The position numbers and the translations under genes are program-made. The notes under the pieces were generated by a model. The model worked only from the letters and a program-made list of their open reading frames with translations. It was not told the origin of the DNA and ran no database searches. 64,000 bases of DNA from a virus. Positions within the stretch are counted from its first letter, which is position 1. Each line of letters begins with the position of its first letter. Below are positions 2,109-47,688 of the stretch, piece after piece. Where the stretch lies: UHGV virus genome UHGV-0076294; one strand, written 5' to 3'.

Positions 2109-2142
2109 TACCCTCCTGCTTAGCAGGAGGGTATTTATTATT
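2109..2142. terminator. Rho-independent terminator between convergent genes
   Basis: ccctcctgc-tta-gcaggaggg followed by tatttattatt. Confidence 0.65.
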
Positions 2143-2617
2143 CTACCGGGTGCAGCATAGTGCCGGTATCCGGAATGCTACCTTCGTGACATCTGAAGAA
2201 CGTTACGCCTTTCCCTTCACCCGTTTTGTAGTTGATGGTAGAATACGCAAACGTTGGGGTTTTCGACAGTAACCCGTTTACACGGTAATAGCGCTCACCG
2301 GTAACGACGTTTAAGTTACCGTCAACTTTTCCTAACAAATCTTTATAAAGTTGCGGAGATTCGATTTTACCTTCGTTCCATGAAGCGACCCAATTCGCCC
2401 CTGTATCCATGACTAACACCGAAAGGGGCATCAGTTTTAGGCTAGACGGTACCGGTTTAAAATCAACGAATTCTTGGGAAGCGCCTGTACAGGTGTAAAT
2501 GACCATATCATGTTGGTCAACAGGTACGGTAGAGAACTGACCTTCTGCGTTCGGCTGAATAGCACAACTTGCCAATGTCATTACAAAAGCAACGACCACG
2601 AGAATGCGTTTTAGCAT
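2138..2617 (-). CDS. Putative lipoprotein
   Basis: N-terminal signal peptide with lipobox LASC (MLKRILVVVAFVMTLASC); SD aagggtgag. Confidence 0.55.
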   Translation of the reverse strand: MLKRILVVVAFVMTLASCAIQPNAEGQFSTVPVDQHDMVIYTCTGASQEFVDFKPVPSSLKLMPLSVLVMDTGANWVASWNEGKIESPQLYKDLLGKVDGNLNVVTGERYYRVNGLLSKTPTFAYSTINYKTGEGKGVTFFRCHEGSIPDTGTMLHPVE

Positions 2618-28619: not shown

Positions 28620-28647
28620 TAGGTCGTTCCTTAGATCGGAAATGTAA

Positions 28648-28670
28648 TCAGATATATTTTACTTAGGTGA
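28648..28670 (+). promoter_or_regulatory. Conserved intergenic motif cAGATATATTTTACTTAGGTGAG (candidate phage promoter)
   Basis: Near-identical copy at 32954-32976; related copies upstream of other plus-strand genes. Confidence 0.4.
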
Positions 28671-28673
28671 GTA

Positions 28674-28697
28674 GGGGCTGAAGTGCGAATTCAGCCC
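28674..28697 (+). other. Hairpin immediately downstream of candidate promoter motif
   Basis: ggggctgaa-gtgcg-ttcagcccc. Confidence 0.35.
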
Positions 28698-28926
28698 CTA
28701 TAGGCACGTTTCTTTTCGAAACGGATACTAACAATAGCGGAGGCTACCATGCTTGCTGAACAGAAAGACGGTATCGAAGAGGTAGTGAGACTCTTCCGTC
28801 ACTATTCACCTTATCTACCACGGTAATCATAGTATTACTTAAAATTTACAGATTGTCCCTTTATTCTGCTACTCGGGATACCGGTAGGGGGTAGGGGGCA
28901 ATCTGTATACGGATATAAATAGCGGA

Positions 28927-29765: not shown

Positions 29766-30323
29766 ATGTCTACTATTGAACTGAAACAACAAGTTATTGG
29801 ATTTGTTAAGCTGGGTGCAGGTAAACACCAACTTGATTATCCTTGCGTTATACAGTCTAACATTATCCCGGTCGATACAATGATTACCGGTCTTCAAGTT
29901 GAAGAATTTGATGGAGATGCTGTGGTTTGGGAACGCCATTTCACACGACTTAATTATCGTAAAGTCGGAGATAGTTTTACCGAAATATTCCGTCATCTGT
30001 TTTCCGGTACCGGATGGAAAGTAACGAGTGCGTTCTACGGTGGGAATGTTATTACGCTTCTAGACACGGGGAATGCACGTTATCTCGTGAACTTTACTTT
30101 CGCAAGACGCTACGCATATTTCCCCAACCCGCTTACGTGTACGTTAAGTAACCCAGGAATGCTACTAACAGATAAAGAAGCAGACGTTCTACTCGCCGAA
30201 CTGCGAAAAGACGGTTGCGACGTTGACGATTGGGAAACATTGATCGCTGTCGCTAAAGCACACGGTTGGTATACCGTACGTAAAATCGGTCGACAGTTGT
30301 TGTTCTTAGCTTATAATGTTTAA
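29766..30323 (+). CDS. Hypothetical protein, GW...QLLF paralog family
   Basis: SD aaaggagaaa; C-terminus AHGWYTVRKIGRQLLFLAYNV. Confidence 0.55.
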   Translation: MSTIELKQQVIGFVKLGAGKHQLDYPCVIQSNIIPVDTMITGLQVEEFDGDAVVWERHFTRLNYRKVGDSFTEIFRHLFSGTGWKVTSAFYGGNVITLLDTGNARYLVNFTFARRYAYFPNPLTCTLSNPGMLLTDKEADVLLAELRKDGCDVDDWETLIAVAKAHGWYTVRKIGRQLLFLAYNV

Positions 30324-30334
30324 AGGATGATATC

Positions 30335-31462
30335 ATGCATATCTACCATAACTCACCGTCACATAAACTTTATCTTGAATTGCTTTTCGAGGATTACAAG
30401 AAAGGTGTACCGAAAATACTACTCAGTATCCCCTGTGCCACACAAACTGATTTGTTCGGTCGCGTTTTTGGTTGTACTGTTAACGCTTTGCCAGAACCAA
30501 TCTGTGCACCTATAGATAATTGTGTTTTCGACGAGCGAATTGAGGGTTTTCAATTCACCTTTTACGTAAACGATTCTTTACCGTACGACAAACTTTACGT
30601 TCGTGAGTTGAAATCAAATCAGCGGTTAATGTACCGCGTCTACCCACCCCACAAAGGATCGTTACTGGAGTATAAAATCAGGCGGCTACCTTACGAGGGT
30701 GTGAAATTACTCGACCAGCAGGATATAGCTTTTCTGGAAGAACTTTGCGGATTCGAAATTGAGAAAATTCACGTAACCCAGGAAATATCCCGAAACGTAC
30801 CTAGTCGTCTCACCCCTAACGGCGGGTTTCCGTACGAGTTCACCGACACAGGGCTAAGGCTCGTAACCGAATTTAACGACGTAATGTATTACGCAGTGTG
30901 TATTGAACGTAAAGTAGTGGAGAAAGAAATGGCAAGTACATTGAAAGAAGAATTAGCTCAATTCATTCGTGACGTCGAAGAGAAAAGCAAGAGCGATCAC
31001 ATTTTCTCACAACGCTATCCTGAACTTATTGACGAAACCACCGATAGTGTCGTCGATGGTATACGCATTTTCCCAAGCAACCTTGCAACTTACCGACTGC
31101 CCAGCCTTAACCAGCTTAAAGTCATGGAAATGCTAAAAGACGTTTTAGCAAAAGCGGGTTGGGAATATCGTTTCGATTGCAATTTCGAAGGGATGGCGTT
31201 ATTCGTTACAAAGAAAAATTATAATTTGACAATCGATCTGCCCAAAAGTCAGTATTACAGTTTCTTCCCGAAAGCGGATGACCGCACTGAAAAAGAACCT
31301 GCGTTGTTACTTGATGCGGCAGAATCCAATACGCTAATGATGCGTCTGCGGATGGTTGACAAAAAGTTAAATACCGGCCATCTAACGACGATCGGTAAAG
31401 ATTACGGTTGGAAATCTGTCGAACCGTACGGCAGTCAGCTGCTGTTTGTTGCTGACCTTTAA
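30335..31462 (+). CDS. Hypothetical protein, GW...QLLF paralog family
   Basis: SD aaggatg; C-terminus LMMRLRMVD...YGWKSVEPYGSQLLFVADL. Confidence 0.55.
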   Translation: MHIYHNSPSHKLYLELLFEDYKKGVPKILLSIPCATQTDLFGRVFGCTVNALPEPICAPIDNCVFDERIEGFQFTFYVNDSLPYDKLYVRELKSNQRLMYRVYPPHKGSLLEYKIRRLPYEGVKLLDQQDIAFLEELCGFEIEKIHVTQEISRNVPSRLTPNGGFPYEFTDTGLRLVTEFNDVMYYAVCIERKVVEKEMASTLKEELAQFIRDVEEKSKSDHIFSQRYPELIDETTDSVVDGIRIFPSNLATYRLPSLNQLKVMEMLKDVLAKAGWEYRFDCNFEGMALFVTKKNYNLTIDLPKSQYYSFFPKADDRTEKEPALLLDAAESNTLMMRLRMVDKKLNTGHLTTIGKDYGWKSVEPYGSQLLFVADL

Positions 31463-31497
31463 TAAGTGAAACTACACTTTCTCTAACTGCCGCGCTT

Positions 31498-31524
31498 TAG
31501 TCGCGGCTTTTGTTAAGAAGGAAA
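31498..31524 (+). terminator. Hairpin terminator
   Basis: gccgcg-ctttagt-cgcggc followed by ttttgtt. Confidence 0.5.
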
Positions 31525-31529
31525 AAGAA

Positions 31530-32303
31530 ATGAAAATCCATTTAGACGACCTCTTTAAATCTGAACCGTATATGGTTAAAGGTTCGCTGGCTTCATTGTT
31601 GCTAGACGATAGATTTCATCGAACGCTGCAATTACAATCGGTCGAATCCGCGCCAACAGAAGACGTGGGTCTTTATCAACGTATCACTTATACGCGCGGA
31701 GAATATCGGCGATATAAACCTGATACGCTAACCGTTAAACTCTGGCAAGTGGCCACAGGCAAAGTATTAACTTATCGCGCTGTTGGTCTGTACTACGTTG
31801 AACGTGCCTACGCATGGTTAGAAGAAGTTAAAGAAATGGATTACGGCCGTTTAAGCAAAAGACTGCGCGATAATAACGCCAGTTTACCGCTACGTAATTA
31901 TTTCTCCACAATTGAAAATAGTCGTTGTTTCGTTTCACGCGAATCCATGATATTGCCTGGGGCTGATGTTCAGACGACACTAAAAGATGTGGTTGTGAGG
32001 AAAATCTTTCATGAATCTGAACACGTTGGATTTCGTATCTATTTAACGCACAAGAGGCCATTTACCGTGATTCATCTTGTTACCGTACCCGAAGGCTCGG
32101 CAGTCGTACGTGAACTTCCTGACGCACGTGACCGTAGTCCTAATGAGCCACTTTACTTAATGTCAGGAACAAAATCAGAATCTTTGATGTCCCGTTACAG
32201 CATGGTTGATGTTGTTGATACTGCTATGAAATTAGGTTGGAAAGAAGTACAACAGCACGGCAAACAATTGCTGTTTATCGCAGATGTAAATCTCAATAAC
32301 TAA
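31530..32303 (+). CDS. Hypothetical protein, GW...QLLF paralog family
   Basis: SD aagaaggaaaaag; C-terminus LMSRYSMVD...LGWKEVQQHGKQLLFIADV. Confidence 0.55.
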   Translation: MKIHLDDLFKSEPYMVKGSLASLLLDDRFHRTLQLQSVESAPTEDVGLYQRITYTRGEYRRYKPDTLTVKLWQVATGKVLTYRAVGLYYVERAYAWLEEVKEMDYGRLSKRLRDNNASLPLRNYFSTIENSRCFVSRESMILPGADVQTTLKDVVVRKIFHESEHVGFRIYLTHKRPFTVIHLVTVPEGSAVVRELPDARDRSPNEPLYLMSGTKSESLMSRYSMVDVVDTAMKLGWKEVQQHGKQLLFIADVNLNN

Positions 32304-32898: not shown

Positions 32899-32930
32899 GG
32901 TGGGGTGTAAACCCCACCTTTTATTTTTTG
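32899..32930 (+). terminator. Rho-independent terminator
   Basis: ggtgggg-tgtaaa-ccccacc followed by ttttattttttg. Confidence 0.7.
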
Positions 32931-32953
32931 TTCTCTAACATTAAAAATAATCT

Positions 32954-32976
32954 CAGATATATATTACTTAGGTGAG
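32954..32976 (+). promoter_or_regulatory. Conserved motif cAGATATATATTACTTAGGTGAG (candidate promoter)
   Basis: Second near-identical copy; sits between terminator and secreted-protein gene block. Confidence 0.4.
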
Positions 32977-33023
32977 AGTTAAGATTAACTCTTTTACTTG
33001 TTAACCCCACGAGGAGAAAAACA

Positions 33024-33485
33024 ATGAAAATCTTCACTTCCTTTTTAATCGGCCTTCTCGCAATCGGATTCAATACTGCACACGCTGCAATCAATAGTTG
33101 GGAACAACTACAGAACCCAGGTCAAGCTGTTTACGAAATCGAAGACACCACCGGAAACGGACTGTCTATCAACTGTGACACTGAAACCGCGAATCGCAAA
33201 TTTTACGGTCGCATGGTTTGGTATTACGGGGAACCTGTAGGTGCAACTAACGCTGAAGACAACACGCTGGATATTGTCGTAAATGGCAAAACTTACAACA
33301 TCCCTACCGTGGATGGTAGTGACAAAGCAGAACTCGCTTGGGTGGCTTTCGTTAATGCTATCGGCAATGCCAAAACTTTCAGTGTGAATATCAACGGAAA
33401 CGAAGCCGCTAACTTTACCGTAGAAGGCGAACGTCTGTCTGAAACTTTCTTCCAGAACTGTGGACACACCCGTCCTAACAAATAA
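33024..33485 (+). CDS. Small secreted protein (signal peptide)
   Basis: SD gaggagaaaaa; N-terminus MKIFTSFLIGLLAIGFNTAHA. Confidence 0.55.
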   Translation: MKIFTSFLIGLLAIGFNTAHAAINSWEQLQNPGQAVYEIEDTTGNGLSINCDTETANRKFYGRMVWYYGEPVGATNAEDNTLDIVVNGKTYNIPTVDGSDKAELAWVAFVNAIGNAKTFSVNINGNEAANFTVEGERLSETFFQNCGHTRPNK

Positions 33486-33512
33486 GTATTAATCTTTTTA
33501 GAGTGCGTGAAA

Positions 33513-33899
33513 ATGAATATCAGAACTATACTTTATACCATCATTATTTTCTGTGCAGTCGGTATTACTGCCACTTATGCTTTCGGTGATTCGGATGTCC
33601 GCTATTACGAACCGGCTCCTGACTCACCGATTATCAACCCGGATGAGTCGCCTACGTTAATGCGCAGTTTCGGTAAACTGCAAGTTTATCGTTTAGTGCG
33701 TGGTGAATCGTGTACCGGATTACTCATTGCTGACACCCGTGCACAAGTCTACCAACGTCTGACGGATATCGCCTGCGAACAACCAAAAGTCATGTCGGTC
33801 AGTATTCATCCGTTAGAGGTCGGTAACTATACTGCTGTGGACTTCTTCCATAATGCAGAACTGATTGGTCGTATTACTTTAAATCGTAGCGCTGAATAA
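33513..33899 (+). CDS. Small secreted protein (signal peptide)
   Basis: N-terminus MNIRTILYTIIIFCAVGITATYA; ATG 33513 preferred over GTG 33507. Confidence 0.5.
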   Translation: MNIRTILYTIIIFCAVGITATYAFGDSDVRYYEPAPDSPIINPDESPTLMRSFGKLQVYRLVRGESCTGLLIADTRAQVYQRLTDIACEQPKVMSVSIHPLEVGNYTAVDFFHNAELIGRITLNRSAE

Positions 33900-33917
33900 T
33901 TTAATGGAGAAATTACA

Positions 33918-34400
33918 ATGAAACGTTTACACACCCTGATGCTCTTCGTGGCTATTCTGTTCACGGGCTTTAACTTTAACGCAGAAGCGGCTAGTGTAAA
34001 ACAAGCACTTAGTTGTAACCCGGAAGCCTGGGCTGAACAACCCGGTGCGTGTCCTGATATCAATACGCTCTATACCGACGACGCTACTTATAAAGCCGCG
34101 ATCGATAAAGCGTTGAAACCGGTCGGACTGGACGGATTATTCGGTAAAGATGGTGTAATGAATGGTCCTGGCGGCGATGTTATTCCCGTGCAAATCAACG
34201 GCAAAATCTGGCTTGAAGCTACTGGTTGTAAAAGCAATGCTTGTGGTTGGGAATACATCACGACGCTTTATAACCCGCAGACCCATGTCGTGGTAGGTTA
34301 CTATTACAACGTCGACCCAGGTTACCTGGTTTGGTTTGGCGATATCGGCGTTAATGAATTCGCCTATCTGGTTAAGAAATACGTAGCTACGGTTAATTAA
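33918..34400 (+). CDS. Small secreted protein (signal peptide, several Cys)
   Basis: SD tggaga; N-terminus MKRLHTLMLFVAILFTGFNFNAEA; paired cysteines suggest disulfides. Confidence 0.55.
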   Translation: MKRLHTLMLFVAILFTGFNFNAEAASVKQALSCNPEAWAEQPGACPDINTLYTDDATYKAAIDKALKPVGLDGLFGKDGVMNGPGGDVIPVQINGKIWLEATGCKSNACGWEYITTLYNPQTHVVVGYYYNVDPGYLVWFGDIGVNEFAYLVKKYVATVN

Positions 34401-34415
34401 TTTAAGGAGTCTGTC

Positions 34416-34826
34416 ATGAAAACGTTTATCAAAACTTTACTCGTTGCTGTAACTGTTCTGTTCTCTCTTAACGTAGCAGCAAAAACAGTAAAACTACCGG
34501 CGGGTATCAAATACGTCAACAGTACCGATGAATTCTACTGCACAGAAATCGACGGTCTGTATTGCCAGACAAAGAATTTGTTTGAATACAAAGGTAACAG
34601 ATATGTTTTCGTTGTTGAGCAAGGTGGTGCCTGGTGCTACGACAGCCCTATGTCGGTACTCAACCTGGAAACTTGGAAAGCACAGAAAATTGAATACAAA
34701 GACAACCAATTGTGTTCAGGCGAAAACAAACCGTTCTTCAAAATCAAAAATGGTGTCCCGACTGTAGGTATTATCGACACCTCTGGAGCACCAATCGTTG
34801 TAGCTCAGGACAAACTTAAAATCTAA
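34416..34826 (+). CDS. Small secreted protein (signal peptide)
   Basis: SD aaggag; N-terminus MKTFIKTLLVAVTVLFSLNVAA. Confidence 0.55.
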   Translation: MKTFIKTLLVAVTVLFSLNVAAKTVKLPAGIKYVNSTDEFYCTEIDGLYCQTKNLFEYKGNRYVFVVEQGGAWCYDSPMSVLNLETWKAQKIEYKDNQLCSGENKPFFKIKNGVPTVGIIDTSGAPIVVAQDKLKI

Positions 34827-34836
34827 GGAGTAAACC

Positions 34837-35226
34837 ATGCGTCTTATCTGCGCTTTGTTGGCGTTTTTCTCAATCGGAGTTATGGCTTCTACACACATCG
34901 ACGATTTATTACTTACCCCGGCAACGAACACAGACTATCACTACAACCCACCGGGTTTTGAAGTCTGCGAAGGCGATGCAGGCGAATGCCAAGAAGTTGG
35001 CGCAGATGGACGCTATATACTCGTAAAAGCAGACGGAGGAACAACCTGCCCTGCGGGTTATTATTTCGTACTTGACTCTGTAGCAAAAGAGGTACTTCCT
35101 GTAACGACCAAAACGTGTGACCCCACAGTTGTACTAACGCTTGCGAAAAGCAAATCACGTGACCGTCACTTTATTGTCATCGAAGAACGCGGTGAGATGT
35201 TAGGTGCTATCGAATTAGATTACTGA
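34837..35226 (+). CDS. Small secreted protein (signal peptide)
   Basis: SD aaggag; N-terminus MRLICALLAFFSIGVMAS; followed by terminator. Confidence 0.55.
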   Translation: MRLICALLAFFSIGVMASTHIDDLLLTPATNTDYHYNPPGFEVCEGDAGECQEVGADGRYILVKADGGTTCPAGYYFVLDSVAKEVLPVTTKTCDPTVVLTLAKSKSRDRHFIVIEERGEMLGAIELDY

Positions 35227-35237
35227 TGTGTAGTCTT

Positions 35238-35276
35238 GACCCCGGCACGTGCCGATTCGTCCGGGGTCCTTTTTAC
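35238..35276 (+). terminator. Hairpin terminator
   Basis: gaccccgg...ccggggtc followed by ctttttac. Confidence 0.55.
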
Positions 35277-35305
35277 GACCTGTTTTACCTAAAGGAGAAT
35301 TAAAA

Positions 35306-35782
35306 ATGCGTTTATCTAATGTTTATCAAGCGGCCCAATTCCATCACGAGCTGACGGCTAAGCCTGAATATATTCGCCACAACTTAACGGTGGCTTGGAA
35401 ACTGCTATTGATTGCTGATGCTGCACGACACAACGACCAGGAAACTATTATCAAAACCGTGCGTACTTTACGCCCTATTGACCTGGAAACAATTTGGTCG
35501 TTTGACTTAACTCGAATTTATCATCGTCGCTTTAATGCGGCGGTGGATGCGATACGTCCTTATTTCCACTATTTGCAAGCAACATCAGACTGTGGTCCAT
35601 CCTTAGAGTGGGTCTTGGTACAAAGCGTATGGAGCGATTACATTTATCTCCTATCTTTAGAGACGGGTGAATGCATTATCGCTAACGAGGTATTCTCAAC
35701 CAACGCCGAAATGTATCGTTCCCACGCTACTATCCAGGGTGTCTCACAGCCTATCTTATCACTCACGCACTTAGGGCTGTGA
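35306..35782 (+). CDS. Hypothetical protein
   Basis: SD aaaggagaa before ATG 35306; ORF-track start 35249 lies within the upstream terminator hairpin. Confidence 0.5.
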   Translation: MRLSNVYQAAQFHHELTAKPEYIRHNLTVAWKLLLIADAARHNDQETIIKTVRTLRPIDLETIWSFDLTRIYHRRFNAAVDAIRPYFHYLQATSDCGPSLEWVLVQSVWSDYIYLLSLETGECIIANEVFSTNAEMYRSHATIQGVSQPILSLTHLGL

Positions 35783-41235: not shown

Positions 41236-41320
41236 CACACAACAAAGGAGTACCAGCTGTCCGCGCCGTGATTTCGTTCTACGGAATACGGAAATGTATA
41301 AATCCAACTGGAGAACTAGT

Positions 41321-42007
41321 ATGTTTCGTATCTTCTTTCTTTTACTGGTAACACTTTTCGCGTTTAACGCATACGCATCCAAATCCGCACCCAGTGCCAA
41401 ACACCATCGTGAATTCGAAATGATTCAAGACCGTTTCGAACGGGTAAAACCGTTGATTGTGGAAATCTCTCGAAAGCAGGGTGTTGATCCTAATTTAATG
41501 ACCACGCTAATCTATCGAGAGTCACGGTTTAATCCGAAGGCGTATAATCGAACGTCTAAAGCGCACAGTCTGGTTCAGATGCTACCGAGCACAAAGCGCA
41601 ATTTGCTAAAACTCTACGGTGCCGAAATCGGACTTAGTCGCAATGCGGATTTGTACAATCCTCGTAATGCGGTGCTATTGGCTTCCGTCTACGTTAAACA
41701 TTTAGAAAAGGGGTTAACTAAACGACTCAAACGCAAGCCCACTATTGCAGAAATAGCATTGGCTTATCACTGGGGTGAAAGCGGTGCACACGCCAGGATT
41801 AAAAGCAAGTCTCGGGCAGCACAACGAGAAATGGCGAGCTTTATGAAAGATGCAACGTTCTACAGTGCGAAAATCAACAAGCCTGTAGCATCTCGTCAGC
41901 TTGCGTTTGCGAAGAAACCAGAACGCCAGATTCAGTTAGCAGAAGTTAACCGAATTTGGGATACGATAAACACCAGTTTTCCATTTAAACAAGGAGTCAC
42001 CCTTTGA
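41321..42007 (+). CDS. Lytic transglycosylase (SLT domain) with signal peptide
   Basis: SD tggagaa before ATG 41321; signal peptide MFRIFFLLLVTLFAFNAYA; catalytic-region motif YRESRFNPKAYN...AHSLVQMLPST. Confidence 0.7.
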   Translation: MFRIFFLLLVTLFAFNAYASKSAPSAKHHREFEMIQDRFERVKPLIVEISRKQGVDPNLMTTLIYRESRFNPKAYNRTSKAHSLVQMLPSTKRNLLKLYGAEIGLSRNADLYNPRNAVLLASVYVKHLEKGLTKRLKRKPTIAEIALAYHWGESGAHARIKSKSRAAQREMASFMKDATFYSAKINKPVASRQLAFAKKPERQIQLAEVNRIWDTINTSFPFKQGVTL

Positions 42008-42576: not shown

Positions 42577-43056
42577 ATGTTGAAGTTTATCTGGCGTTAC
42601 CCAACCCGCTTTTGGTTCGTGGTATTAGAGGTAATCACCGTTTTACTGTTAGTGACGTTCGTAAACGCCTCTACGAAACAAATGGTGATTTTCTGTGTAT
42701 TCGACGCTATACCGTTGTGGGTATTTGCAAAGATTATTAAGTTTTACATGATAAGCTGGGCGAACTACACCTGTCCATTTAAACCCAGAGAAATCATGAA
42801 CTGGTTGATGTATATCGAAGACCGTTTACCCGCTCAGTCTAAAACGTTAGGCTGGCAATCGATGTTGGATATTGCGCTAGAAACAAACGCAAAATTCCCT
42901 GGGTCAAAGAATCCTTATTTGCTGCTGGCTGTTATTGTTGCCCAGCAGAAACGTGCAGGCGAACGTTGGTTACCGAAAGAAGCGAAAGAGTATATTCGTA
43001 AACATCCGAAGGCTTTCTATTCCGTAGGTCAATGGCGTAACCTCCCACTCTTTTAA
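42577..43056 (+). CDS. Membrane protein (two predicted TM helices)
   Basis: SD aaaggagcaaagg; hydrophobic segments FWFVVLEVITVLLLVTFV and MVIFCVFDAIPLWVFAKII. Confidence 0.5.
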   Translation: MLKFIWRYPTRFWFVVLEVITVLLLVTFVNASTKQMVIFCVFDAIPLWVFAKIIKFYMISWANYTCPFKPREIMNWLMYIEDRLPAQSKTLGWQSMLDIALETNAKFPGSKNPYLLLAVIVAQQKRAGERWLPKEAKEYIRKHPKAFYSVGQWRNLPLF

Positions 43057-47232: not shown

Positions 47233-47688
47233 ATGAAATCGCTGTTATTCATCATGATTTTGTGCGTGGGTTTGGTGAGTAATAGCTATGGAGAACCCGG
47301 TAAACGGTCATCCTATACTGCGTTACAGCCTCCGCCAGCGCCACCTATCATGTTAAATTGGAAAATTGATAAAGACGCGATGCGGGAATATGTTGCGGAT
47401 GTGAATACATACGCTTATTACGTTTATCTCTACACACGAAACTTAAATCAGCAAGCAGTCAAACGCGGGTGGAATCCACCGATGTTAGCACCTATCTGCG
47501 AACGGTTTGAAATTCCTAAATTACATTCCGTTCCAGAAAAGATGCTATTAGACGAGAAAGCGTTAACGCCACAAGAAATCAGTCGGGATTTATCACGTAA
47601 ACTGAATTCGTTGTTGTGGAATTATCGCTCTGACCGGCAAGCTTTATTAGACGCCTACGATCAGTATCTGACAACGTGTTTGAACTGA
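47233..47688 (+). CDS. Secreted protein (signal peptide, Pro-rich N-terminal region)
   Basis: SD aaggag; MKSLLFIMILCVGLVSNSYG then LQPPPAPP; followed by terminator. Confidence 0.5.
   Translation: MKSLLFIMILCVGLVSNSYGEPGKRSSYTALQPPPAPPIMLNWKIDKDAMREYVADVNTYAYYVYLYTRNLNQQAVKRGWNPPMLAPICERFEIPKLHSVPEKMLLDEKALTPQEISRDLSRKLNSLLWNYRSDRQALLDAYDQYLTTCLN

What the first reader, a model, noticed from the sequence alone, without database searches (positions are those of the whole stretch)
33024..35226. Array of five consecutive small signal-peptide proteins
Seen in sequence: five adjacent genes (129-160 aa) each start with a classic positively charged N-terminus plus hydrophobic core plus A-x-A-like cleavage region. 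One (33918-34400) has several paired cysteines. The block is bracketed by terminators and preceded by the conserved promoter-like motif. Inference: a set of periplasm-targeted proteins is unusual in a virulent phage. Candidate roles are superinfection exclusion, inhibition of periplasmic host enzymes, or envelope remodelling.
Basis: partly seen in the sequence, partly recalled or inferred. Interest (0 to 1): 0.5.

Follow-up and report, generated by a model that had tools for sequence, protein, structure and literature searches.

The report
Jumbo-phage early secreted-protein cassette with Ivy-like inhibitor
Five neighbouring genes of a giant phage form a predicted early operon of proteins exported to the bacterial periplasm; one is a divergent relative of the bacterial lysozyme inhibitor Ivy, and it and its neighbour also sit on the chromosome of about 41% of complete E. 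coli genomes, where a relative has been linked to resistance to phage T7.

Summary
Five + strand ORFs (33024-35226) all have Sec-type signal peptides. A terminator and a phiKZ-type early-promoter box lie upstream; a second terminator follows p5. The window is from an uncharacterised ~222-kb relative of the SPN3US/phiEaH2 jumbo phages.

The cassette is a mosaic:
- p2, p4, p5 are conserved in the same slot across the clade.
- p4, p5 and the "slot-3" gene of relatives (SPN3US gp181) are diverged paralogues with four conserved Cys and an all-beta fold without a PDB match.
- p1 is a lineage-specific orphan.

SPN3US orthologues are absent from the virion proteome. A p2-remnant/p3/p4 segment sits in CP4-type islands of 2,247 of 5,426 complete E. 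coli genomes. A preprint reports that knocking down an E. coli O121 Ivy-like gene with the same loop as some of these copies raises T7 plaquing.

Best reading: an early periplasmic anti-muralytic module, Spackle-like in logic but Ivy-like in fold. No biochemical activity has been tested. The main rival is control of the phage's own Sec-signal SLT endolysin (41294-42007).

The parts
32899..32928 (+). Intrinsic terminator closing the upstream operon (GGTGGGGT-GTAA-ACCCCACC plus T-run)
   Evidence: Terminator scan. RNA fold -17 kcal/mol, z -4.06, 0 of 200 shuffles as good.
32952..32974 (+). phiKZ-type early (virion-RNAP) promoter box TCAGATATATATTACTTAGGTG; core TATATTAC at 32960-32967
   Evidence: Sequence. 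89% identical over ~55 bp to intergenic sites in SPN3US-like phages, including the site upstream of the SPN3US cassette. Matches the published consensus: phiKZ TATATTAC and 201phi2-1 ...TATATTACDWHDGTG (PMC7058600 Table 2). This motif class is assigned to vRNAP early promoters (PMC7598289). The transcription start site has not been mapped.
32974..32993 (+). Hairpin directly after the promoter box (AGAGTTAA-GA..-TTAACTCT); predicted 5' stem-loop of the transcript
   Evidence: Fold. The stem is kept with a different sequence in the 228-kb relative L005 (GTGAGAGT..ACTCTCAC), and a hairpin also follows the second promoter copy at 28668-28700. Function unknown.
33024..33485 (+). p1: 153-aa exported protein (AHA|A21; Cys51, Cys146). 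Lineage-specific orphan added at the front of the cassette.
   Evidence: Only a weak PHROG hit (phrog_3429, E 2.8e-6). No tblastn hit in 50,697 phage records even at E<=1. No PDB, Pfam, NCBIfam or PADLOC hit. Exact or near-exact copies occur only on ~222-226 kb contigs. The 228-kb relative has an unrelated, non-secreted 123-aa gene here.
33507..33899 (+). p2: 130-aa protein with a long hydrophobic N-terminus (signal peptide TYA|F25 or signal anchor) and two conserved Cys (69, 90). The most conserved cassette member (SPN3US gp180 orthologue).
   Evidence: phrog_9424, E 6e-42. 46-52% identity to SPN3US gp180, Asesino gp201 and SPAsTU 260 in the same slot. dN/dS 0.04. Relation to the p5 family is not supported once signal peptides are removed (hhalign 4%).
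33918..34400 (+). p3: 160-aa exported, divergent Ivy-superfamily protein (AEA|A24; Cys33/45 and Cys104/109). It occupies 'slot 3' of the cassette.
34227..34244 (+). Codons for the C104-K-S-N-A-C109 loop of p3, aligned on Ivy's CKPHDC inhibitory loop; Asn107 replaces the loop His
   Evidence: HMMER alignment of profile 'saCeahnCg' on Ivy 'SACKPHDCG'. C104, K105, C109, G110 and W111 are invariant in the close family. The His is present in all distant relatives and some E. coli copies (CKAHAC); it is Asn in phage copies and in CKANAC/CKANTC E. coli copies. Loop pLDDT is below 50, so its geometry is not modelled.
34416..34826 (+). p4: 136-aa exported all-beta protein (VAA|K22; Cys42, 50, 74, 100). 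Member of the four-Cys paralogue family (SPN3US gp182 orthologue).
34837..35226 (+). p5: 129-aa exported protein (VMA|S17; mature Cys44, 51, 71, 94). Second member of the four-Cys family (SPN3US gp183 orthologue).
   Evidence: phrog_5248, E 5e-31. 47-50% identity to SPN3US gp183 and Asesino gp204. hhalign on mature regions: p5 vs slot-3 95.1% (3e-8). Shared motif (R)Y-x-(L)V..GG..CPxGxY plus four aligned Cys. PMC5105663 Table S1 (CoreGenes) lists gp183 with phiEaH2 and CR5 counterparts.
35238..35277 (+). Terminator-like hairpin GACCCCGG...CCGGGGTC followed by CTTTTTAC, closing the cassette
   Evidence: RNA fold -24.4 kcal/mol, z -2.0; sequence.
28645..28700 (+). Second copy of the early-promoter box (AATCAGATATATTTTACTTAGGTGAG) plus a 5' hairpin, at the strand-switch point where the + strand block begins
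41294..42007 (+). Context gene and candidate target: 237-aa protein with a Sec-type N-terminus (..AYA|SKS) and an SLT lytic-transglycosylase domain; the clade's annotated 'putative endolysin'
   Evidence: PF01464, E 3.3e-14, 52.9 bits against a cut-off of 21.3. Signal-peptide heuristic. Orthologues at 47-53% identity are annotated 'putative endolysin' or 'transglycosylase' in SPN3US-like, Erskinevirus and Machinavirus phages, aligned from residue ~8.

Best explanation
The five genes form one transcription unit. It is driven by a phiKZ-type early promoter, which in this phage group is read by the RNA polymerase injected with the DNA, so the products should appear within minutes of infection. 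This timing is inferred from the motif.

All five products are exported by Sec, cleaved by signal peptidase I (p2 possibly stays anchored) and oxidised to disulfide-bonded periplasmic proteins. This is inferred from the sequence. They are not virion parts, as shown for the SPN3US orthologues.

p3 is a divergent Ivy-superfamily protein (shown). It most likely works like Ivy, inserting its disulfide-locked C-K-S-N-A-C loop into the active-site cleft of a lysozyme-fold or lytic-transglycosylase enzyme in the periplasm (inferred).

The most likely biological role is competition between mobile elements. It would neutralise the wall-piercing muralytic enzymes of phages that attack an already infected cell, or a cell carrying the island copy. 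That is the logic of T4 Spackle achieved with a different fold. The same p3(-p4) module has been captured by E. coli CP4-type islands, and a preprint reports that knocking down an Ivy-like E. coli O121 gene carrying the CKANTC loop found in some of these copies makes T7 plate better.

p4 and p5 (and the slot-3 paralogue of relatives) are a separate, diversifying family of four-Cys beta proteins. I take them to be further periplasmic binders of unknown target. p2 is a conserved partner and p1 a recent add-on.
For: Operon anatomy:
- Terminator, promoter box, five tightly spaced ORFs (11-22 bp gaps), terminator.
- The box matches the phiKZ and 201phi2-1 early-promoter consensus. That class is recognised by vRNAP.

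Export:
- Canonical n/h/c regions in all five, no lipobox, an even number of Cys in every mature part.
- Five contiguous among 9 of 66 signal-peptide-like ORFs.

Not structural:
- No protein between gp173 and gp193 in the SPN3US virion MS table; orthology is.

Ivy membership of p3:
- Profile to PDB Ivy at E 1.4e-13, with loop-on-loop alignment.
- hhalign 99.9%.
- 10 of 10 bridging relatives pass the Pfam cut-off.

Anti-phage link:
- E. coli O121 Hypo_04657, Ivy-like with loop CKANTC, raises T7 EOP when knocked down (bioRxiv 10.1101/2024.04.20.590424).
- CKANTC is the loop of my E. coli hits P0007, P0008 and P0015, which are 65-75% identical to p3.

Selection outside the phage:
- At least 80% of the p3-p4 module is present in 2,247 of 5,426 complete E. 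coli genomes.
- It lies in the cargo region of CP4-type islands, where p2 has decayed to a frameshifted remnant but p3 stays intact.
- dN/dS is 0.12-0.24 for p3.
- p3 diverges about three times faster than its neighbours between two phage lineages (dN 0.31 against 0.08-0.13), as expected for an arms-race interface.

Precedent:
- T4 Spackle is an early, periplasmic, disulfide-bonded inhibitor of the tail lysozyme gp5 (PMC7677548).
Against: - No biochemical or genetic test exists for the phage proteins.
- The loop His, which is invariant in the distant relatives and present in Ivy's CKPHDC motif, is Asn in p3. The loop is the least confident part of the model, so inhibitory activity could be altered or lost.
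- E. coli Ivy is only a weak inhibitor of E. coli MltA/B in vitro (PMC10139938).
- The T7 phenotype comes from a preprint CRISPRi screen with clonal validation. I could not verify that Hypo_04657 is the same locus as my hits; the link rests on the shared CKANTC loop and Ivy-like fold.
- Early timing is inferred from a motif; no transcript data exist for this phage.
- Signal peptides were judged by my own heuristic.
- p3 is confined to this lineage, so it cannot explain why the rest of the cassette is conserved. p1, p2, p4 and p5 have no functional evidence at all.
- PADLOC has no model matching any of the five.
Confidence: 0.5

Rival explanations
1. Self-regulation of lysis. p3, and perhaps other cassette proteins, accumulate early in the periplasm to hold the phage's own Sec-exported SLT lytic-transglycosylase endolysin (41294-42007) inactive until the programmed lysis time.
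For: The same genome encodes an SLT-domain protein with a strongly hydrophobic, cleavable-looking signal peptide. It is annotated 'putative endolysin' across the clade. Ivy-family proteins inhibit lytic transglycosylases in vitro (Clarke 2010 as cited in PMC3660660 and PMC10139938). An exported endolysin needs some restraint.
Against: The endolysin, with its N-terminal hydrophobic segment, is conserved in SPN3US, Erskinevirus and Machinavirus phages that lack p3, so p3 cannot be its obligatory regulator. E. coli islands keep p3(-p4) without any such endolysin. The T7 phenotype of the E. coli homologue is not explained. The T4 paper argues that its early-expressed inhibitor is unlikely to act on the late endolysin.
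Confidence: 0.17
2. Control of host autolysins. p3 damps the host's lytic transglycosylases to keep the sacculus intact while the cell is reprogrammed and enlarged by a jumbo-phage infection. This is the 'physiological' role proposed for bacterial Ivy.
For: Ivy and MliC are Rcs-induced on peptidoglycan damage and partially inhibit MltA/B in vitro (PMC10139938). P. aeruginosa Ivyp1 and Ivyp2 inhibit MltB (cited there). The predicted early expression fits host takeover.
Against: Inhibition of E. coli LTs by Ivy is weak and gave no in vivo protection. The host already has Ivy and MliC. This does not explain the rapid divergence of p3 or the anti-T7 phenotype.
Confidence: 0.12
3. Protection from animal lysozyme. 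p3 acts as a canonical C-type lysozyme inhibitor that protects the infected or carrier cell, or the island-bearing E. coli, in the gut or urine. It would be a fitness 'moron', not an anti-phage device.
For: Ivy is a potent HEWL inhibitor. The phage is found with clinical and animal Enterobacteriaceae isolates and as a plasmid-like replicon. The island copies are very common in E. coli.
Against: The loop His of the CKPHDC motif is replaced in p3. The chromosomal ivy gene is already present in E. coli. The reported phenotype of the homologue is on phage plaquing.
Confidence: 0.08
4. The cassette is mainly an envelope-remodelling or receptor-masking set (p2, p4, p5 bind LPS, peptidoglycan or outer-membrane receptors). 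p3 is an incidental passenger that replaced one paralogue.
For: p2, p4 and p5 are the conserved core, while slot 3 is variable: absent, a beta paralogue, or Ivy-like. The p4 model resembles beta-propeller/lectin-type meanders, and one 42-residue segment weakly resembles a ricin-B-type trefoil repeat.
Confidence: 0.1

Closest known systems
Ivy, inhibitor of vertebrate lysozyme (E. coli YkfE, PDB 1GPQ/1XS0; P. aeruginosa Ivyp1, 1UUZ/4PS6; Pfam PF08816)
   Different: About 18% identity. p3 alone is below the Pfam and NCBIfam cut-offs. It has an extra N-terminal Cys33-Cys45 pair. The loop is CKSNAC, with Asn in place of the conserved His. It is encoded by a phage early operon and by mobile islands rather than a housekeeping locus. 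Its activity is untested.
E. coli O121 Hypo_04657 (PHAGEPACK preprint, bioRxiv 10.1101/2024.04.20.590424)
   Same: An Ivy-like protein with a CKANTC loop, the loop of my E. coli hits P0007, P0008 and P0015 (65-75% identical to p3). It is the only relative with a phenotype: knock-down increases T7 plaquing.
   Different: Chromosomal, and called as a longer ORF (~225 aa) with an extra N-terminal segment. The preprint did not note the phage origin, the adjacent p4 homologue, the island context or the prevalence. I could not confirm that it is the same locus.
T4 Spackle (gp61.3) superinfection-exclusion protein
   Same: A small early phage protein with a cleaved periplasmic signal and a disulfide bond. 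It inhibits a muralytic enzyme (the gp5 tail lysozyme) of incoming phages. This is the proposed logic for p3.
SPN3US gp180-gp183 and orthologues (PHROGs 9424, 8968, 5248) in Seoulvirus, Erskinevirus and Machinavirus
   Same: p2, p4 and p5 are orthologues in the same slot upstream of the SbcC/SMC gene. A copy of the same promoter box lies upstream of the SPN3US cassette. All carry signal-peptide-like N-termini.
   Different: Those phages have a beta paralogue (gp181 type) or nothing in slot 3, and lack p1 and p3. All are annotated hypothetical and have never been studied.
PliC/MliC, PliI, PliG periplasmic lysozyme inhibitors
   Same: Small, beta-rich periplasmic proteins, as p4 and p5 are.

Membership tests
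Ivy superfamily (PF08816) | N-terminal Sec signal peptide / periplasmic location | tested here: met
   MKRLHTLMLFVAILFTGFNFNAEA|AS by my n/h/c heuristic. No SignalP was available and no experiment exists.
Ivy superfamily (PF08816) | Ivy fold (antiparallel beta-sheet flanked by helices) | tested here: met
Ivy superfamily (PF08816) | Sequence homology detectable by profile methods | tested here: met
   Profile A4 hits 1GPQ/1XS0 at E 1.4e-13. hhalign 99.9%, E 1e-32 to relatives that pass the Pfam cut-off.
Ivy superfamily (PF08816) | The protein itself reaches Pfam's gathering score (21 bits) | tested here: not met
   14 bits, E 0.059. 9 of 13 close relatives give weak hits, best E 0.0077.
Ivy superfamily (PF08816) | Disulfide-closed six-residue loop at the inhibitory position | tested here: met
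   C104-K-S-N-A-C109-G aligns on C-K-P-H-D-C-G. The Cys residues are invariant.
Ivy orthologues (CKPHDC; NCBIfam NF007443 equivalog) | Conserved His (and Pro/Asp) of the CKPHDC loop; equivalog score | tested here: not met
   Asn107 at the His position. NF007443 scores 17 bits against a cut-off of 180.
Ivy superfamily (PF08816) | Inhibits C-type lysozyme and/or lytic transglycosylase | not testable with these tools
   Needs purified protein and enzyme assays.
T4 Spackle-type superinfection exclusion | Early-expressed, exported, disulfide-bonded small phage protein | tested here: inconclusive
   The signal peptide and Cys pairs are present. Early timing is only predicted from a phiKZ-type promoter box.
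T4 Spackle-type superinfection exclusion | Homology or fold of Spackle (alpha-helical bundle) | tested here: not met
T4 Spackle-type superinfection exclusion | Blocks secondary infection by inhibiting a tail muralytic enzyme | not testable with these tools
   There is only indirect support from the T7 knock-down phenotype of an E. coli relative.
PliC/MliC, PliI, PliG lysozyme inhibitors (for p4/p5) | Family fold or Pfam domain | tested here: not met
Four-Cys beta family (p4, p5, SPN3US gp181-type slot-3 proteins) | Mutual homology independent of the signal peptide; four aligned Cys and the GG..CPxGxY core | tested here: met
   hhalign on mature parts: 97.9% (6e-13), 95.1% (3e-8), 78.5% (2e-5). 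Alignment A2. p2 and p1 are not members.
phiKZ-like early (vRNAP) promoters | AT-rich conserved box with a TATATTAC core upstream of operon starts | tested here: met
   TCAGATATATATTACTTAGGTG at 32952-32974, with a second copy at the strand switch. Consensus from PMC7058600 Table 2.
phiKZ-like early (vRNAP) promoters | Mapped transcription start and early kinetics | not testable with these tools
   No transcriptome for this phage. The SPN3US infection proteomics paper (J Virol 2019) is not held.

The most novel reading that the evidence does not exclude
The cassette is a diversifying battery of periplasmic 'entry-blocking' proteins with two unrelated folds: Ivy-like, and a new four-Cys beta fold. 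Jumbo phages deploy it from an early promoter against competing phages. E. coli CP4-type islands have domesticated its p3-p4 core as a very common (about 41% of complete genomes) and so far unrecognised periplasmic anti-phage defence that neutralises the wall-piercing transglycosylases or lysozymes of incoming phages such as T7.
Probability: 0.25. Interest if true: 0.8.

Novelty: new variant of a known kind. Interest (0 to 1): 0.62.

Why it matters
If p3 inhibits phage muralytic enzymes, it would be the first Ivy-fold inhibitor found in a phage genome. No relative exists in 50,697 deposited phage records. It would also be a second, independent solution, after T4 Spackle, to blocking superinfection at the cell-wall step.

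It would give a function to a pair of 'hypothetical' genes present in about 41% of complete E. coli genomes, and a mechanism for a published but unexplained T7-resistance hit. It would also add a periplasmic, pre-DNA-entry layer to the catalogue of mobile-element-borne defences.

The p4/p5/slot-3 family is a conserved, exported protein family of nucleus-forming-type jumbo phages with no known fold relative or function. The cassette gives a defined, small target for genetics in the SPN3US model system.

Tried and rejected
- All five proteins as one family or all Ivy-like: rejected. hhalign gives p4, p5 and slot 3 vs Ivy at <=1.5%. p1 and p2 are unrelated to the others on mature regions.
- p2 as a distant p5 paralogue: suggested by a PHROG cross-hit (9.6e-4) and by hhalign with signal peptides (29%). 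It fell to 4% without them.
- ThreeFoil beta-trefoil hit for the p4/p5 profile (E 6.6e-5): an artefact of three identical designed repeats, each ~8 bits with individual E-values of 26-38. Kept only as a weak lead.
- p3 family profile (A1) alone against PDB sequences: only a spurious mannanase hit. The broader profile A4 was needed.
- PADLOC and NCBIfam: no hits except the sub-threshold Ivy equivalog.
- Sigma-70 promoters: fewer than expected by chance (5 against 10.7), so host-type promoters are not indicated.
- Lipoproteins: no lipobox in any of the five. SPN3US gp180 has an LAAC motif, but it is not conserved in the family.
- Virion component hypothesis: rejected for the orthologues.
- p1: no homologue in phage records at E<=1, PDB or Pfam.
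- Not available: the afdb50 fold library; Abergel 2007 PNAS and the SPN3US infection-proteome paper are not held.
- Budget limits: I had no database search left for p1, and no structure job for p1, p2 or p5.
Full report
**1. Observation**

The five ORFs exist exactly as described.

| Gene | Coordinates | Length | Predicted cleavage site |
|---|---|---|---|
| p1 | 33024-33485 | 153 aa | AHA\|A21 |
| p2 | 33507-33899 | 130 aa | TYA\|F25 |
| p3 | 33918-34400 | 160 aa | AEA\|A24 |
| p4 | 34416-34826 | 136 aa | VAA\|K22 |
| p5 | 34837-35226 | 129 aa | VMA\|S17 |

Each begins with a K/R-containing n-region, an uncharged hydrophobic core and a small-x-small site. None has a lipobox or a second hydrophobic segment. 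Each mature part has an even number of cysteines. p2 has an unusually long h-region and might remain anchored.

The same heuristic applied to 66 gene-like ORFs of the window flags nine, five of them contiguous. My estimate for such a run by chance is about 1e-3.

The block is bracketed by a strong terminator at 32899-32918 and by a G+C-rich hairpin plus T-run at 35238-35277. The consensus scan missed the second one. The next gene therefore probably starts at the ATG at 35306 rather than the GTG at 35249.

**2. Genome and promoter**

The window belongs to an uncharacterised jumbo phage. Its SbcC/SMC protein is only 69% identical to those of Erwinia phages Asesino and phiEaH2, and 57% identical to that of SPN3US.

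The only nucleotide-level similarity of the region to 50,697 phage records is a ~55-bp intergenic element just upstream of p1. It reads TCAGATATATATTACTTAGGTG (32952-32974) followed by a hairpin (32974-32993). The same box precedes the orthologous cassette in SPN3US and in a 228-kb metagenomic relative. In that relative the hairpin stem is kept with a different sequence. A second copy plus hairpin sits at 28645-28700, where the + strand block starts.

The box matches the published early-promoter consensus of phiKZ (TATATTAC) and 201phi2-1 (…TATATTACDWHDGTG) (PMC7058600). This motif class is assigned to the injected virion RNA polymerase (PMC7598289). Host sigma-70-like promoters are not enriched. 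Early expression is therefore predicted, not shown.

**3. The cassette is a mosaic**

tblastn and blastp against fetched loci show a conserved slot just upstream of two small genes and the SbcC/SMC gene.

| Phage group | Cassette content |
|---|---|
| SPN3US (gp180-183), SPAsTU, pEa_SNUABM_29, Asesino, phiEaH2 | p2-like, "slot 3", p4-like, p5-like |
| Machinavirus | p2-like, p4-like, p5-like (no slot 3) |
| This window and the 228-kb relative L005 | p2, Ivy-like p3, p4, p5 |

All carry signal-peptide-like N-termini.

p1 is present only in the window's own lineage. L005 has an unrelated, non-secreted gene at that position. p1 has no homologue in phage records or the PDB and no Pfam family above threshold.

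Profile-profile comparison on mature regions shows that p4, p5 and the slot-3 proteins are diverged paralogues: 97.9% (E 6e-13), 95.1% (3e-8) and 78.5% (2e-5). They share four aligned Cys and a shared (R)Y-x-(L)V…GG..CPxGxY core. p2 is not demonstrably related.

**4. p3 is a divergent Ivy-superfamily protein**

- Alone it scores 14 bits against Pfam Ivy (cut-off 21) and 17 bits against the NCBIfam Ivy equivalog (cut-off 180).
- Its close family used as a profile finds about 30 more distant full-length relatives. All 10 tested pass the Pfam Ivy threshold.
- hhalign between the two sets gives 99.9%, E 1e-32.
- A combined profile hits the solved E. coli and P. aeruginosa Ivy structures at E 1.4e-13 and 2e-9.
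- The invariant C104…C109-G aligns residue for residue on Ivy's C-K-P-H-D-C-G loop.

Other proteinaceous lysozyme inhibitors, Ivy included, work by inserting such a loop into the active site (PMC7677548). In p3 the loop is CKSNAC. The His that is invariant in the distant relatives is Asn in the phage copies, and either His or Asn in E. coli copies (CKAHAC, CKANAC, CKANTC). The loop is the least confident part of the model.

**5. Not structural**

SPN3US gp180-183 are absent from the 83-protein virion mass-spectrometry table. Nothing lies between gp173 and gp193 (PMC5105663 Table S4).

**6. Link to E. coli islands**

- p3 has no relative in deposited phages, but many in E. coli.
- In CP4-type integrative islands the order is: GTPase, dynamin-like, RdcB/YjcZ, patatin, p3 homologue, p4 homologue, DUF932, antirestriction, RadC, YeeT, CbeA/CbtA, next to tRNA genes.
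- The gene order and 15-bp spacing match the phage, and the DNA is colinear at 76% identity over 962 aligned bases.
- Some islands also keep a frameshifted remnant of p2 directly upstream.
- p2 and p4 are native to the jumbo-phage clade, and the island p4 is 79% identical to this phage's p4 against about 30% for SPN3US's. The segment therefore moved from this phage lineage into the islands, probably more than once. Chromosomal copies at >=90% identity also exist.
- 2,247 of 5,426 complete E. coli genomes carry at least 80% of the module, with up to four copies, all annotated hypothetical.
- All genes are under purifying selection (dN/dS 0.04-0.24). p3 diverges about three times faster than its neighbours.

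**7. Functional clue**

The PHAGEPACK preprint reports an E. coli O121 hypothetical protein (Hypo_04657) that superimposes on Ivy, carries a 'CKANTC' loop, and increases T7 plaquing efficiency when knocked down (bioRxiv 10.1101/2024.04.20.590424). CKANTC is the loop of my E. coli hits P0007, P0008 and P0015. I could not verify locus identity.

The authors suggested the cytoplasmic T7 lysozyme as the target. Given a periplasmic inhibitor, I consider the transglycosylase domain of the ejected T7 core protein gp16 more plausible. That rests on my own knowledge and is untested.

**8. Mechanism**

Best reading (confidence ~0.5): an early operon of exported proteins whose Ivy-like member blocks muralytic enzymes in the periplasm, used in competition between mobile elements. 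It is functionally analogous to T4 Spackle, an early, periplasmic, disulfide-bonded inhibitor of the gp5 tail lysozyme, but built on the Ivy fold.

Shown:
- the operon anatomy;
- Ivy-superfamily membership and the loop alignment;
- the paralogy of p4, p5 and slot 3;
- the synteny across the clade;
- the island capture and its prevalence;
- the absence of the orthologues from the virion.

Inferred:
- export to the periplasm;
- early timing;
- inhibitory activity;
- the target;
- the biological role.

ORF 41294-42007 has a Sec-type signal and an SLT lytic-transglycosylase domain, and it is the clade's annotated endolysin. An exported transglycosylase endolysin would need restraint, and Ivy proteins inhibit such enzymes in vitro. 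However, the endolysin is conserved in clade members that lack p3, and the islands keep p3 without it.

Other rivals are control of host transglycosylases, protection from animal lysozyme, and receptor or envelope masking by the conserved p2/p4/p5 core.

**9. Novelty and score**

The closest known entities are bacterial Ivy (same fold and loop; different loop chemistry and genomic setting), the preprint's Hypo_04657 (same subfamily), T4 Spackle (same proposed logic, unrelated fold) and the unstudied SPN3US gp180-183.

I rate it a new variant of a known kind, interest 0.62. It is a concrete, testable candidate for a widespread periplasmic anti-phage inhibitor, together with a new exported protein family. 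No function has been demonstrated for the phage proteins.

Noticed in passing
window 41294-42007 (+): A 237-aa protein with a strongly hydrophobic, cleavable-looking signal peptide (..FAFNAYA|SKS) and an SLT lytic-transglycosylase domain (PF01464, E 3e-14). Its orthologues are annotated 'putative endolysin' across SPN3US-like phages. A Sec-exported transglycosylase endolysin in a Gram-negative jumbo phage is itself unusual, and it is a candidate target of the Ivy-like p3.
   Followed up: partly
whole window; NZ_CP173450.1; L005: This phage has no close relative among 50,697 deposited phage genomes (best 69% aa in SbcC). Yet it occurs as ~222-226 kb contigs in many Salmonella, E. coli, Shigella and Enterobacter isolate assemblies, and as a circular 221,873-bp 'plasmid p98232-contig_4' in a complete clinical E. 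coli genome (96.5% nt). This suggests a carrier state, pseudolysogeny or plasmid-like maintenance, or recurrent contamination. 'Virulent' is not established.
   Followed up: partly
window 32952-32993 and 28645-28700; L002 3396-3480; L005 2165-2215: The early-promoter box is always followed immediately by a hairpin whose stem is conserved in structure but not always in sequence. The first ~55 bp are 89% identical across phage genera, far longer than a promoter needs. In SPN3US the box upstream of gp180 is followed by a terminator-like hairpin with a T-run before the gene, suggesting a 5' leader, attenuator or small RNA.
   Followed up: partly
window 29766-32303 (+): Three consecutive genes (185, 375 and 257 aa) just upstream of the cassette end with the same C-terminal motif: G-x-QLLF-[ILV]-A-[DY]. 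They look like a paralogue array of unknown function, with no Pfam hits for the neighbours tested.
   Followed up: no
window 2138-2617 (-), 47233-47688 (+), 42577-43056 (+): Further envelope-targeted proteins: a 159-aa predicted lipoprotein (MLKRILVVVAFVMTLASC, lipobox LASC), a 151-aa signal-peptide protein, and a 159-aa membrane protein just downstream of the endolysin (possible holin/spanin region). None has a Pfam hit.
   Followed up: partly
L022 6811-7488; P0004, P0007, P0008 (E. coli): In many E. coli islands the p3 homologue is called as a ~225-aa ORF. It fuses a 65-aa upstream segment, which has its own signal-peptide-like start (MKLPVKLLMSLISLVSVIARA), to the normal MKRLH… start of p3. 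This is either an annotation artefact or a real fusion, and it may explain the 'two-domain' description in the PHAGEPACK preprint.
   Followed up: no
L009-L012, L017-L019, L022 (E. coli islands): The p3-p4 module always sits between a GTPase/dynamin-like/RdcB(YjcZ)/patatin gene set and the DUF932-antirestriction-RadC-YeeT-CbeA/CbtA backbone of CP4-type islands. This is a cargo position where defence-like genes might be expected. The dynamin/RdcB/patatin set has no PADLOC assignment that I tested.
   Followed up: no
window 35249-35782: The ORF list gives a GTG start at 35249, which would overlap the terminator hairpin. The ATG at 35306, preceded by AAAGGAGAA, matches the 158-aa length of the homologue in L005 and is the likelier start.
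   Followed up: yes
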